A stretch of 5,181 nt of DNA from a virus. Lineage: Duplodnaviria > Heunggongvirae > Uroviricota > Caudoviricetes. Position 1 is the stretch's first letter; each line of letters begins with the position of its first letter. Below are positions 1,020 to 5,181 of this stretch, piece after piece. Where the stretch lies: the IMG/VR virus record IMGVR_UViG_3300039360_000012. One strand, given 5' to 3'. The notes below the pieces were generated by a model. That model was not told the origin of the DNA. It ran no database searches and worked only from the letters and a program-made list of their open reading frames with translations. Made by a program: the position numbers and the translations under genes.

Positions 1020-1358
1020 ATGAACAAAACGATTTTATTCTGCACGATTATTGCCTTAACAGGATGTAAATCTTTGGATTACGTAAAATCCGGAAAACCT
1101 GTAATGGAAGGTAATTCATTAAAAAATATTGATGAATTGTCAGGCTGCATATCCAGACAATGGGCTGGTAATGGAACACCTATAACATCCCTTCCTATTG
1201 AGAATGGGGTAAGCCTTTTAGTTCCACAGGCTATGGGTGGGTATGATGTTGTGCTTGATATCAAAAAAGCAGGAAATGGCAGTAGTTTTACTCTTTATGA
1301 ACGCGTACCAGCATTAACGCCAAAAATTTTTGCTGATAGTGTTAATGCATGTAAATAA
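1020..1358 (+). CDS. Small secreted lipoprotein (moron) inserted between tail genes I and J; predicted outer-membrane lipoprotein, function unknown (candidate lysogenic-conversion / superinfection-exclusion factor)
   Basis: ATG at 1020 gives MNKTILFCTIIALTG|CKS...: a basic n-region (K3), a hydrophobic h-region and a lipobox L-T-G-C (signal peptidase II type). The residue after the lipidated Cys is Lys, not Asp, so outer-membrane sorting is expected under the E. coli +2 rule. Mature protein is about 92 aa with two additional Cys. Stop is TAA at 1356-1358, followed immediately by TAG. The ORF track starts this ORF at an in-frame TTG at 1008, but the ATG at 1020 gives the canonical signal peptide. 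No strong Shine-Dalgarno is visible. Base composition is markedly AT-rich compared with flanking K/I/J. I do not recognise the protein as a named family. Confidence 0.7.
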   Translation: MNKTILFCTIIALTGCKSLDYVKSGKPVMEGNSLKNIDELSGCISRQWAGNGTPITSLPIENGVSLLVPQAMGGYDVVLDIKKAGNGSSFTLYERVPALTPKIFADSVNACK

Positions 1359-1424: not shown

Positions 1425-4400
1425 ATGGGTAAAGGAAGCAGTAAGGGGCATACCCCGCGCGAAGCAAAGGACAACCTGAAGTCCACGCAGTTGCTGAGTG
1501 TGATCGATGCCATCAGCGAAGGGCCGATAGAAGGTCCGGTGGATGGATTAAAAAGCGTGCTGCTGAACAGTACGCCGGTGCTGGACAGTGAAGGGAATAC
1601 CAACATCGCCGGTGTCACGGTGGTGTTCCGGGCAGGTGAGCAGGAGCAGACACCGCCGGAGGGTTTTGAATCCTCCGGATCCGAGACGGTGCTGGGTACG
1701 GAAGTGAAATATGACACGCCGATCACCCGGACCATCACGTCTGCAAACATCGACCGTCTGCGCTTTACCTTCGGTGTGCAGGCTCTGGTGGAAACCACCT
1801 CAAAGGGGGACAGGAATCCGTCGGAAGTCCGCCTGCTGGTTCAGATACAGCGTAACGGTGGCTGGGTGACGGAAAAAGACATCACCATTAAGGGTAAAAC
1901 CACCTCGCAGTATCTGGCCTCGGTGGTGGTGGATAACCTGCCTCCGCGCCCGTTCAATATCCGGATGCGCAGGATGACACCGGACAGCACCACAGACCAG
2001 CTGCAGAACAAAACGCTCTGGTCGTCATACACCGAAATCATCGATGTGAAACAGTGCTACCCGAACACGGCACTGGTCGGTGTGCAGGTGGACTCGGAGC
2101 AGTTCGGCAGCCAGCAGGTGAGCCGTAATTATCATCTTCGCGGGCGCATTCTGCAGGTGCCGTCGAACTATAACCCGCAGACGCGGCAATACAGCGGTAT
2201 CTGGGACGGAACGTTTAAACCGGCATACAGCAACAACATGGCCTGGTGTCTGTGGGATATGCTGACCCATCCGCGCTACGGCATGGGGAAGCGTCTCGGT
2301 GCGGCGGATGTGGACAAATGGGCGCTGTATGTCATCGGCCAGAATTGCGACCAGTCGGTGCCGGATGGCTTTGGTGGCACGGAGCCGCGCATAACCTGTA
2401 ATGCCTGGCTGACCACACAGCGTAAGGCGTGGGATGTTCTCAGTGATTTCTGCTCTGCGATGCGCTGTATGCCGGTATGGAACGGGCAGACGCTGACGTT
2501 CGTGCAGGACCGACCGTCGGATAAGGTGTGGACCTATAACCGCAGTAATGTGGTGATGCCGGATGATGGCGCGCCGTTCCGCTACAGCTTCAGCGCNNNN
2601 NNNNNNNNNNNNNNNNNNNNNNNNNNNNNNNNNNNNNNNNNAACGGCTGGGAGACGGCGACAGAGCTTGTGGAGGACACGCAGGCCATTGCCCGTTACGG
2701 TCGTAACGTCACGAAGATGGATGCCTTTGGCTGTACCAGTCGGGGGCAGGCACACCGCGCCGGGCTGTGGCTGATTAAAACGGAGCTGCTGGAAACGCAG
2801 ACCGTGGACTTCAGCGTGGGCGCAGAAGGGCTTCGCCATGTACCGGGCGATGTCATTGAAATCTGCGATGATGACTATGCGGGTATCAGCACAGGCGGGC
2901 GCGTGCTGGCGGTGAACAGCCAGGCGCGGACACTGACGCTCGACCGTGAAATCATGCTGCCATCCTCCGGCACCACGCTGATAAGCCTGGTTGACGGAAA
3001 TGGCAATCCGGTCAGCGTGGAGGTCCAGTCCGTCACCGACGGCGTGAAGGTGAAAGTGAGCCGTGTTCCTGACGGCGTTGCCGAATACAGCGTGTGGGGG
3101 CTGAAGCTGCCGACGCTGCGCCAGCGCCTGTTCCGCTGTGTGAGTATCCGGGAGAACGATGACGGTACGTATGCCATCACCGCCGTGCAGCATGTACCGG
3201 AAAAAGAAGCCATCGTGGATAACGGGGCGCACTTTGACGGCGACCAGAGCGGCACGGTGAATGGTGTCACGCCGCCAGCGGTGCAGCACCTGACTGCCGA
3301 AGTCACCGCAGACAGCGGGGAATATCAGGTACTGGCGCGATGGGACACGCCGAAGGTGGTGAAGGGGGTGAGCTTTATGCTTCGCCTGACCGTGGCAGCG
3401 GATGACGGCAGTGAGCGGCTTGTCAGCACAGCCCGGACGACGGAAACCACATACCGCTTCAGGCAACTGGCGCTGGGGCGTTACACGCTGACAGTCCGGG
3501 CGGTAAATGCGTGGGGACAGCAGGGCGATCCGGCGTCGGTATCGTTCCGGATTGCCGCACCGTCAGCGCCGTCGCGGATTGAGCTGACTCCGGGCTATTT
3601 TCAGATAACCGCCACGCCGCATCTTGCCGTTTATGACCCGACGGTACAGTTTGAGTTCTGGTTCTCGGAAAAGCGGATTGCGGATATCAGGCAGGTTGAA
3701 ACCACAGCCCGCTATCTTGGCACGGCGCTGTACTGGATAGCTGCCAGTATCAATATCAAGCCGGGCCATGATTATTATTTTTACATCCGCAGTGTGAACA
3801 CCGTTGGCAAATCGGCATTCGTGGAGGCTGTTGGCCAGCCGAGTGATGATGCATCCGGCTATCTGGATTTTTTCAAAGGAGAGATAGGGAAAACCCATCT
3901 GGCTCAGGAGTTGTGGGCGCAGATTGATAACGGTCAGCTTGCGCCTGACCTGGCTGAAATCAGGACGTCCATTACGGATGTCAGCAATGAAATCACGCAG
4001 ACCGTCAATAAGAAACTGGAAGACCAGAGTGCAGCGATCCAGCAGATACAGAAGGTTCAGGTTGATACAAATAATAACCTGAACAGCATGTGGGCTGTGA
4101 AGCTGCAGCAGATGCAGGACGGACGCCTTTATATCGCGGGTATCGGTGCCGGTATTGAGAACACCCCCGACGGTATGCAGAGTCAGGTGCTGCTGGCGGC
4201 AGACAGGATTGCGATGATTAATCCTGCGAATGGCAACACAAAGCCGATGTTTGTTGGTCAGGGCGATCAGATATTCATGAACGAAGTGTTCCTGAAATAC
4301 CTGACGGCTCCCACCATTACCAGCGGCGGTAATCCTCCGGCATTTTCCCTGACACCGGACGGGCGGCTGACGGCGAAAAATGCAGATATCAGCGGTAACG

Positions 4401-4900
4401 TGAATGCGAACTCCGGGACGCTCAACAATGTCACGATTAATCAGAACTGCCGGATTCTGGGAAAACTGTCAGCCAACCAGATTGAAGGCGATATTGTTAA
4501 AACGGTGGGCAAAGCTTTCCCCCGGGACTCCCGTGCACCGGAGCGGTGGCCATCAGGGACCATTACCGTCAGGGTTTATGACGATCAGCCGTTTGACCGG
4601 CAAATTGTTATTCCAGCGGTGGCTTTCAGCGGTGCCAGACATGAACGGGAGAATAGCGATACTTATTCGTCATGCCGCCTGATAGTGAAGAAAAACGGGG
4701 CTGAAATTTATAACCGAACGGCTCTGGATAATACTCTGATTTACACGGGTGTTATTGATATGCCTGCAGGCAGTGGCGTAATGACACTGGAGTTTTCGGT
4801 ATCAGCATGGTGGGTAAATGGCTGGTATCCCACAGCAAGTATCAGCGATTTGCTGGTTGTGGTGATGAAGAAAGCCACCGCAGGCATCAGTATCAGCTGA
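1425..4900 (+). CDS. J: Tail tip / host-specificity (central tail fibre) protein J, lambda gpJ-like; single gene interrupted by a 45-N run (2597-2641) that breaks the apparent frame
   Basis: ATG at 1425 with GGAG at 1413-1416; the N-terminus [54 protein letters not shown] matches lambda gpJ as I recall it. The two ORF-track pieces (1425..2774 and 2669..4900) are one gene: upstream of the N run the frame reads ...[12 protein letters not shown] (through codon gcN at 2595-2597), and directly after it, at 2642, the other frame reads [30 protein letters not shown]..., contiguous gpJ sequence. Stop is TGA at 4898-4900. Total length is about 1158 codons, similar to lambda gpJ (about 1130 aa). The central part contains fibronectin-III-like segments. 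The C-terminal third is recognisably gpJ-like but diverged from lambda. Confidence 0.9.
2597..2641. other. Run of 45 ambiguous bases (N): assembly gap or masked segment inside gene J
   Basis: Directly visible as n x45. Flanking coding frames differ by one nucleotide, so the true length of the missing segment is not 45. Confidence 0.95.
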
Positions 4901-4918
4901 ATTTTATAACCCCAATAC

Positions 4919-4946
4919 GGGCGTCAGAAATGACGCCTTTTTTATT
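4919..4946 (+). terminator. Rho-independent terminator downstream of J
   Basis: Perfect 7-bp stem GGCGTCA (4920-4926) / TGACGCC (4931-4937) with a GAAA tetraloop (4927-4930), followed by TTTTTTATT (4938-4946). It lies 19 nt after the J stop codon. Confidence 0.65.
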
Positions 4947-4967
4947 GCAGAAAAGCGAGAGGTAATT

Positions 4968-5181
4968 ATGCGTAAATTATGTGCTGTTATTCTGTCCGCA
5001 GTAGTCTGGCTGGTTGCCGCTGGTACGCCAGCGAGCGCAGCAGAGCATCAGTCCACACTAAGCGCCGGGTATCTTCAGGCCCATACTGATATGCCAGGCA
5101 GTGATGACCTGAAGGGCATTAACGTGAAATACCGTTATGAATTTACGGACACGCTGGGGCTGGTGACGTCATTCAGTTATG
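4968..5181 (+). CDS. lom: Lom-like outer-membrane protein (Ail/Lom/OmpX family beta-barrel), 5' part; continues beyond the window end
   Basis: ATG at 4968 is preceded by GAGAGG (4957-4962) at 5-nt spacing. The translation MRKLCAVILSAVVWLVAAGTPASA|AEHQSTLSAGYLQAHTDMPGSDDLKGINVKYRYEFTDTLGLVTSFSY has a Sec signal peptide ending in ASA. The mature start, with alternating aromatic/hydrophobic residues and the motif GINVKYRYE, matches lambda Lom and the Ail family as I recall them. Position immediately downstream of J is the same as lom in lambda. No stop codon before the window end. Confidence 0.8.
   Translation, partial: MRKLCAVILSAVVWLVAAGTPASAAEHQSTLSAGYLQAHTDMPGSDDLKGINVKYRYEFTDTLGLVTSFSY

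What the first reader, a model, noticed from the sequence alone, without database searches (positions are those of the whole stretch)
4901..5181. Lom/Ail-family outer-membrane protein gene immediately after J, behind a strong terminator
A clean intrinsic terminator (GGCGTCA-GAAA-TGACGCC-TTTTTT) follows J, and then a well-positioned ribosome-binding site and ATG start a signal-peptide-bearing protein resembling lambda Lom. Lom/Ail/PagC-family proteins are expressed from prophages and are associated with adhesion and serum resistance (established knowledge). The leader differs from lambda Lom as I recall it, so this may be a distinct allele. Together with the upstream lipoprotein, this prophage would carry two outer-membrane morons flanking J.
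Basis: partly seen in the sequence, partly recalled or inferred. Interest (0 to 1): 0.4.

Follow-up and report, generated by a model that had tools for sequence, protein, structure and literature searches.

The report
Ordinary prophage lom gene after J
The end of this window holds the first 71 codons of a common, already annotated prophage gene for a Lom-type outer-membrane protein, sitting just behind a conserved transcription terminator that follows the tail-tip gene J; it is real but ordinary.

Summary
J stops at 4898-4900. A terminator-like hairpin (stem 4919-4938, then T6 to 4944) follows. A GAGAGG ribosome-binding site lies at 4957-4962, and an ATG at 4968 opens a frame that runs without a stop to the window end (71 codons).

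The fragment matches Pfam Ail_Lom at E 4.2e-42 and PHROG 108 "Lom outer membrane protein". The 381 bases around it are 100% identical to DNA in at least 18 complete E. coli genomes, including strain 042, where the gene is annotated Ail/Lom and encodes 199 aa. 4344 of 5426 complete E. coli genomes have a match.

The allele differs from lambda Lom (45% identity overall, 40% over the first 71 aa) but is a common type in E. coli prophages, so it is not new. The hairpin is kept in relatives, with compensatory changes at three stem pairs, and a second terminator follows lom in the closest relative.

No sigma-70-like promoter was found upstream of lom, so the full "moron" layout is not shown. Whether this copy is intact cannot be read from the window. 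All 12 complete relatives with the same first 71 aa are 199-200 aa.

The upstream lipoprotein ORF (1020-1358, 36.6% GC) is real and looks like an insert. Verdict: already known, low interest.

The parts
1425..4900 (+). Tail-tip attachment gene J (context). It is interrupted by a run of 45 N at 2597-2641, which makes it look frameshifted.
   Evidence: Pfam FNIII-A_GpJ, Phage-tail_3, Ig_J, Ig_J_second, Phage_Tail_Tip and Ig_GpJ_C. Relatives have 49 bases where the window has 45 N. That 4-base difference accounts for the frame change.
4919..4944 (+). Intrinsic-terminator-like hairpin after J: 8-bp stem GGGCGTCA/TGACGCCT, GAAA loop, T6 tail.
   Evidence: Scan. Folds at -13.6 kcal/mol. Conserved with compensatory changes at 3 of 8 pairs in relatives. 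Lambda has a different hairpin plus T-run at the same place.
4957..4962 (+). Ribosome-binding site GAGAGG, 5 nt before the start codon.
   Evidence: Read from the sequence. GAGAGGT is invariant in the alignment that includes lambda.
4968..5181 (+). 5' part of lom (Ail/Lom family outer-membrane beta-barrel protein): 71 codons, cut by the window end. Signal peptide is about residues 1-24.
   Evidence: Translation. Pfam PF06316 at E 4.2e-42, 144.6 bits against a cut-off of 23. PHROG 108. 100% identical DNA annotated Ail/Lom in E. coli genomes.

Best explanation
This is the start of an ordinary lom gene of a lambda-like E. coli prophage. It encodes a secreted precursor of a small, about 175-residue, eight-stranded outer-membrane beta-barrel of the Ail/Lom/OmpX family. 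The gene sits in the canonical slot between the tail-tip gene J and the side-tail-fibre gene. The Sec signal peptide would be cut after A-S-A (residue 24) and the barrel inserted into the outer membrane of the lysogen or the infected cell. The hairpin plus T-run after J is an intrinsic terminator. A second one follows lom in relatives, so lom lies between two terminators inside the late operon. During lytic growth, Q-modified polymerase would read through both terminators and Lom would be made at a high level. In the lysogen, a low level would come from a promoter that was not identified here. What Lom does at the surface is taken from lambda Lom: adhesion to host epithelial cells, and, when abundant, blocking infection by the cognate phage. 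Shown here: the gene, its family, its position, the terminator and its conservation. Inferred: read-through, expression, intactness of this copy, and function.
For: Family: Pfam Ail_Lom E 4.2e-42 over residues 1-71, matching profile positions 1-71 of 199. PHROG 108 Lom. The full-length identical-start protein matches solved lambda Lom (9wso, E 5.5e-50), OmpX (1qj8 group) and Ail (3qra) at E about 1e-19 over its whole mature length. Identity of the locus: 381 nt are 100% identical in at least 18 complete E. coli genomes and 99.2% in phage PhiR46_1, annotated Ail/Lom or Lom, between J and the side tail fibre gene. Closest relative of the whole window: L125 (99.3% and 98.5% either side of the N-run) has 0 mismatches over 4901-5181 and a 199-aa lom ending in YKF. 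Intactness prior: all 12 complete relatives with the same first 71 aa are 199-200 aa, and about 5 of 110 lom copies overall carry early stops. Terminator; second terminator after lom in L125. Expression and function of lambda Lom: expressed in lysogens (PMC7067206), strongly in the lytic cycle (PMC9836094, citing Liu 2013), adhesion (Vica Pacheco 1997, cited in PMC3594210), defence against lambda-vir on overexpression (PMC11888456).
Against: The window stops at codon 71, so a downstream frameshift or stop in this copy cannot be excluded. The exact source contig was not recovered (best relative 99%). No sigma-70-like promoter was found on the + strand in 4500-5181 or in the matching stretch of L125, so the basis of lysogenic expression is unexplained. 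This allele is only 45% identical to lambda Lom, and all functional data come from lambda or phi24B Lom, so transfer of function is an inference. No termination assay exists for this hairpin.
Confidence: 0.93

Rival explanations
1. The copy in this genome is a lom pseudogene: a correct 5' end, but disrupted beyond the window by a frameshift, a stop or an insertion sequence.
For: About 5 of 110 lom copies in fetched loci have early stops (108, 157 and 46 aa). Some relatives of this prophage carry IS elements (IS1 in H41 and H53; IS66 in L042). The window has an apparent frame break in J at the N-run.
Against: All 12 complete relatives sharing the exact first 71 aa are full length. The nearest relative, L125, has an intact 199-aa gene. 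The J frame break is explained by 45 N standing in for 49 bases.
Confidence: 0.05
2. The hairpin is not mainly a terminator. It could be an RNA-stability or processing element (a 3' end protector for J mRNA or a 5' protector for lom mRNA), or a translational control element for lom.
For: In the lytic cycle the late transcript must pass it to reach lom and the tail-fibre genes (gene order). It lies only 23 nt before the lom ATG. Its structure is conserved by compensatory change, which any structured-RNA role would also produce.
Against: It has the full intrinsic-terminator form: a GC-rich 8-bp stem, a tetraloop and an immediately adjacent T6 run that is invariant in relatives. The predicted fold leaves the ribosome-binding site outside the hairpin. 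No Rfam family matches.
Confidence: 0.15
3. The main role of this Lom allele is phage-directed rather than host virulence. Made at a high level late in infection, it would block adsorption of sibling phages to already infected cells or debris (self-exclusion).
For: Overexpressed lambda Lom gave strong defence against lambda-vir but not T7, and its expression rises late in infection (PMC11888456 / PMC12366544). The gene always sits between the two receptor-binding genes J and stf.
Against: [quoted passage not shown] In the fetched loci, Lom proteins at least 80% identical to this one occur with five or six different J C-terminal receptor-binding types (one of the six clusters is a frameshifted variant of the main type). 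That argues against tight matching of Lom to the J receptor specificity, though the sample is biased. Nothing was tested for this allele.
Confidence: 0.3

Closest known systems
Ail/Lom family protein WP_001228228.1 of E. coli 042 (EC042_RS07995), and Lom of Escherichia phage PhiR46_1 (XSB42795.1)
   Same: The 71 residues in the window are identical to both. The DNA of 4801-5181 is 100% identical to 042 and 99.2% to PhiR46_1. Same terminator, same ribosome-binding site, same position between J and the side tail fibre gene.
   Different: Nothing in the overlapping part. Upstream, those two prophages lack the lipoprotein ORF between I and J.
Bacteriophage lambda Lom (NP_040601.1; solved structure 9wso)
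   Same: Same family and same slot between J and stf. Signal peptide, KGINVKYRYE motif and a nearly identical C-terminal 40 residues. A hairpin plus T-run also precedes lambda lom.
   Different: Only 45% identity overall and 40% over the first 71 aa. 199 aa against 206 aa. DNA identity is about 50% over most of the gene and about 90% in the last 90 nt, which indicates a mosaic. The lambda hairpin has a different sequence and is weaker.
Chromosomal OmpX (E. coli), Ail (Yersinia) and Rck/PagC (Salmonella)
   Same: Eight-stranded barrel family. The full-length allele aligns to the whole mature OmpX and Ail chains at E about 1e-19, and to the NCBIfam models for OmpX and 'resistance to complement killing'.
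   Different: Scores are below the equivalog cut-offs of both NCBIfam models (121.7 against 258 bits; 105 against 176 bits), so it is not an OmpX or Rck orthologue. It is prophage-borne. Serum-resistance or invasion activity was not tested.

Membership tests
Ail/Lom family (Pfam PF06316; PHROG 108) | Sequence match to the family profile above the curated threshold | tested here: met
   144.6 bits against a cut-off of 23, E 4.2e-42, residues 1-71 on profile positions 1-71 of 199. PHROG 108 at E 9.9e-32.
Ail/Lom family (Pfam PF06316; PHROG 108) | N-terminal Sec signal peptide with a signal peptidase I site | tested here: met
   MRK, a 16-residue hydrophobic core, then TPASA before AEHQ, read from the translation. 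The OmpX mature chain aligns from residue 29. No dedicated signal-peptide predictor was available.
Ail/Lom family (Pfam PF06316; PHROG 108) | Complete eight-stranded beta-barrel ending in a C-terminal aromatic residue | not testable with these tools
   The window ends at codon 71 and the source contig was not found. Relatives identical over the overlap have 199 aa, cover the whole profile and end in YKF.
Ail/Lom family (Pfam PF06316; PHROG 108) | For phage Lom: location between J and the side-tail-fibre gene | tested here: met
   J is immediately upstream in the window. The stf-type gene is downstream in all close relatives.
Moron (independent transcription unit in a prophage) | Own promoter active in the lysogen | tested here: not met
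   No sigma-70-like site on the + strand in 4500-5181 or in L125 10200-11600. This is a simple consensus scan, so a weak or non-sigma-70 promoter is not excluded.
Moron (independent transcription unit in a prophage) | Own terminator downstream | tested here: met
   In the closest relative L125, AGCCCGCC-GGTTCA-GGCGGGCT followed by T5 lies 27 nt after the lom stop, -18.2 kcal/mol. It is outside the window itself.
Moron (independent transcription unit in a prophage) | Base composition unlike that of neighbouring genes | tested here: not met
   lom is 52-53% GC against 56% for J and 53% for stf. By contrast the lipoprotein ORF is 36.6% GC.
Rho-independent terminator | GC-rich stem-loop immediately followed by a U-run, with the structure conserved | tested here: met
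   Termination activity itself was not tested.

The most novel reading that the evidence does not exclude
Lom alleles of this common 199-aa type may act chiefly for the phage. Bracketed by two terminators that only Q-modified polymerase passes, the gene would be switched to a high level late in infection and the barrel would block adsorption of sibling phages (self-exclusion). Adhesion would then be a side effect. The diverged N-terminal two-thirds (surface loops) would set which phages are excluded.
Probability: 0.25. Interest if true: 0.45.

Novelty: already known. Interest (0 to 1): 0.08.

Why it matters
It matters little beyond correct annotation. The window end carries a routine prophage accessory gene, already named by standard pipelines and present in most sequenced E. 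coli. Two modest points may be useful. The post-J terminator is a conserved, covarying element. And lom shows no recognisable promoter of its own, which is relevant to the open question of how and when Lom is expressed, and whether its main role is virulence or phage self-exclusion.

Tried and rejected
- **Source contig.** I tried to recover it so the ORF could be extended. A genome-contig scan with the full-length protein gave at best 90% identity. An exact 94-nt scan of viral contigs gave 77 loci, none the source. An exact-protein look-up with the lipoprotein gave at best 97%. An exact-protein look-up with protein I gave L125 at 99.3% and 98.5%, still not the source.
- **Promoter.** Scans around lom in the window and in L125 found nothing on the + strand. 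The best hand-read candidate, TATAAC at 4905-4910, has no acceptable -35 element, so I dropped it.
- **Rfam.** No family matches anywhere in the window.
- **Lom and J co-variation.** I tested whether Lom type tracks the J receptor-binding domain. This Lom cluster pairs with five or six J C-terminal clusters (one of the six is a frameshifted variant of the main type), so there is no tight link. The sample was selected on lom sequence and is biased.
- **My own recollection of lambda Lom** was wrong. What I recalled was this common allele. I corrected it against NC_001416.
- **First register error.** My first pair count used a structure line shifted by one column. I repeated it correctly.
- **Papers not held.** Liu 2013 and Casjens & Hendrix 2015 are not in the library.
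- **Not run.** I did not run structure prediction or the large protein searches, because family membership was already unambiguous.

Full report
**Observation**

The long J frame ends with TGA at 4898-4900. Its product carries the Pfam domains of the lambda tip attachment protein, up to the C-terminal receptor-binding domain Ig_GpJ_C.

Nineteen bases later the consensus scan finds the only terminator-like site of 4500-5181. The stem is GGGCGTCA, the loop GAAA, the return stem TGACGCCT (4919-4938), and a T-run reaches 4944 (0.4 sites expected in shuffles). The hairpin alone folds at -13.6 kcal/mol and is the dominant element of the local fold.

GAGAGG at 4957-4962 precedes the ATG at 4968 by five bases. 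The frame from 4968 stays open for 71 codons to the window end. The ORF lister omits it only because it runs off the end.

The product begins MRKLCAVILSAVVWLVAAGTPASA/AEHQ. That is a positively charged start, a hydrophobic core and an A-x-A site, which is a standard Sec signal peptide as read from the sequence.

**What it is**

The 71 residues match Pfam PF06316 (Ail_Lom) at E 4.2e-42, 144.6 bits against a cut-off of 23, aligned to profile positions 1-71 of 199. They also match PHROG 108, "Lom outer membrane protein".

The 381 bases 4801-5181 are 100% identical to at least 18 complete E. coli genomes, including strain 042. 4344 of 5426 complete genomes have a match. In those records the gene is annotated "Ail/Lom family outer membrane beta-barrel protein" and lies between gpJ and a prophage tail-fibre gene.

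Isolated phages carry it as well, for example PhiR46_1 (99.2%), 2G7b, P-EibA, VT1-Sakai and many Stx phages at 84-98%. In E. coli 042 the gene encodes 199 aa ending in GVGYKF.

That full-length protein matches:
- the solved lambda Lom chain 9wso at E 5.5e-50;
- OmpX (1qj8 group) and Ail (3qra) at about 1e-19 across their whole mature chains;
- the NCBIfam models for OmpX and Rck, but below their equivalog cut-offs.

It is therefore a family member and not an orthologue of either.

**Is this copy intact?**

The window cannot say. I could not recover the exact source. The closest relative of the whole window is L125 (GCA_012869195.1), at 99.3% and 98.5% on either side of the N-run. It has no mismatch over 4901-5181 and an intact 199-aa lom.

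Among 110 lom copies in fetched loci, 13 share the exact first 71 residues. Twelve of these are 199-200 aa and one is cut by a contig end. About five copies overall carry early stops. I put the chance of a pseudogene at about 5%.

**"Distinct allele"**

Compared with lambda Lom (NC_001416) the protein is 45% identical overall and 40% over the first 71 residues. It has a shorter first loop region and a nearly identical C-terminal 40 residues. At the DNA level, identity is about 50% over most of the gene and about 90% in the last 90 bases, which is the usual lambdoid mosaic pattern.

It is nonetheless a very common allele type in E. coli prophages and is already annotated.

**The terminator**

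I collected 24 distinct J-lom spacers from relatives. Nearly all have a hairpin plus T-run at the same place.

In an alignment of 10 distinct spacers, 98.8% of cells pair. Three of the eight pairs change on both sides (G-C to A-U, U-A to C-G, A-U to U-A). No shuffle reaches the observed pairing or covariation score, and slid registers drop to 32-61% paired. The T-run and the ribosome-binding site are invariant.

Lambda has a different and weaker hairpin plus T-run at the same position. In L125 a second terminator-like hairpin (-18.2 kcal/mol) follows lom and precedes the tail-fibre gene. No Rfam family matches.

**How it most likely works**

- Shown: gene, family, position, conserved terminator.
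- Inferred from lambda biology: the late transcript made by Q-modified polymerase reads through both terminators. This is consistent with reports that Lom is strongly expressed in the lytic cycle (PMC9836094 and PMC11888456, both citing Liu 2013).
- Lambda lom is also expressed in lysogens (PMC7067206). In phi24B, lom expression was similar in lysogeny and induction (PMC3342100).
- I found no sigma-70-like promoter on the + strand near lom, and only 23 nt separate the T-run from the ATG. The source of lysogenic transcription stays open, and the textbook "moron" layout of own promoter plus terminator (PMC3594210) is only half met.
- GC content of lom (52-53%) is close to that of its neighbours.

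For function, lambda Lom has been linked to adhesion to buccal epithelial cells (Vica Pacheco 1997, cited in PMC3594210). More recently, when overexpressed, it gave strong defence against lambda-vir but not T7, which suggests late-infection self-exclusion (PMC11888456). None of this has been tested for this allele.

A quick check found Lom proteins at least 80% identical to this one next to five or six different J receptor-binding domain types; one of the six clusters is a frameshifted variant of the main type. That argues against strict matching to J, although the sample is biased.

**Verdict**

The feature is an already known, routinely annotated prophage gene. Interest is low.

Noticed in passing
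window 1020-1358 (+), with flanks 948-1424: A 112-aa ORF between tail genes I and J has a lipoprotein signal (MNKTILFCTIIALTG-C, with Lys at +2). Its GC content is 36.6% against 56% for its neighbours, and a terminator-like hairpin follows at 1382-1402. There is no Pfam or NCBIfam match, only PHROG 914 (unknown function). The exact protein is listed in 6742 blocks of the public collection. It is absent from otherwise similar prophages, where I and J are adjacent (E. coli 042, PhiR46_1). It looks like a true inserted moron. Its place next to the receptor-binding gene suggests a receptor-masking exclusion lipoprotein of the Cor/Llp kind, which is untested.
   Followed up: partly
window 2597-2641: A run of 45 N inside J makes J appear split into two frames (1425-2774 and 2669-4900). 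All close relatives have 49 bases there. The 4-base difference explains the frame change, so J is probably intact and the break is an artefact of masking or scaffolding.
   Followed up: partly
loci L015-L027, L032, L033 (genome contigs): Assemblies labelled Neobacillus, Kitasatospora, Leeuwenhoekiella, Pseudomonas, Shewanella, Bradyrhizobium, Paenibacillus and others hold low-coverage contigs 99.5-100% identical to phage lambda J-lom-stf DNA. This is almost certainly laboratory lambda contamination and not native prophages.
   Followed up: yes
L125 11254-11275 (downstream of the window): A second, stronger terminator-like hairpin (AGCCCGCC-GGTTCA-GGCGGGCT followed by T5, -18.2 kcal/mol) lies between lom and the side-tail-fibre gene. 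lom is therefore bracketed by two terminators inside the late operon.
   Followed up: partly
lom of L125 (10628-11227) against lambda lom (L004 4966-5586): DNA identity is about 50% over most of the gene and jumps to about 90% in the last 90 bases. This suggests a recombination joint inside lom that is shared by diverged alleles.
   Followed up: partly
relatives H41, H42, H53 and L042 3377-5893: Some otherwise near-identical prophages carry IS1 or IS66 insertions in the I-J region, so part of this prophage lineage is decaying.
   Followed up: no
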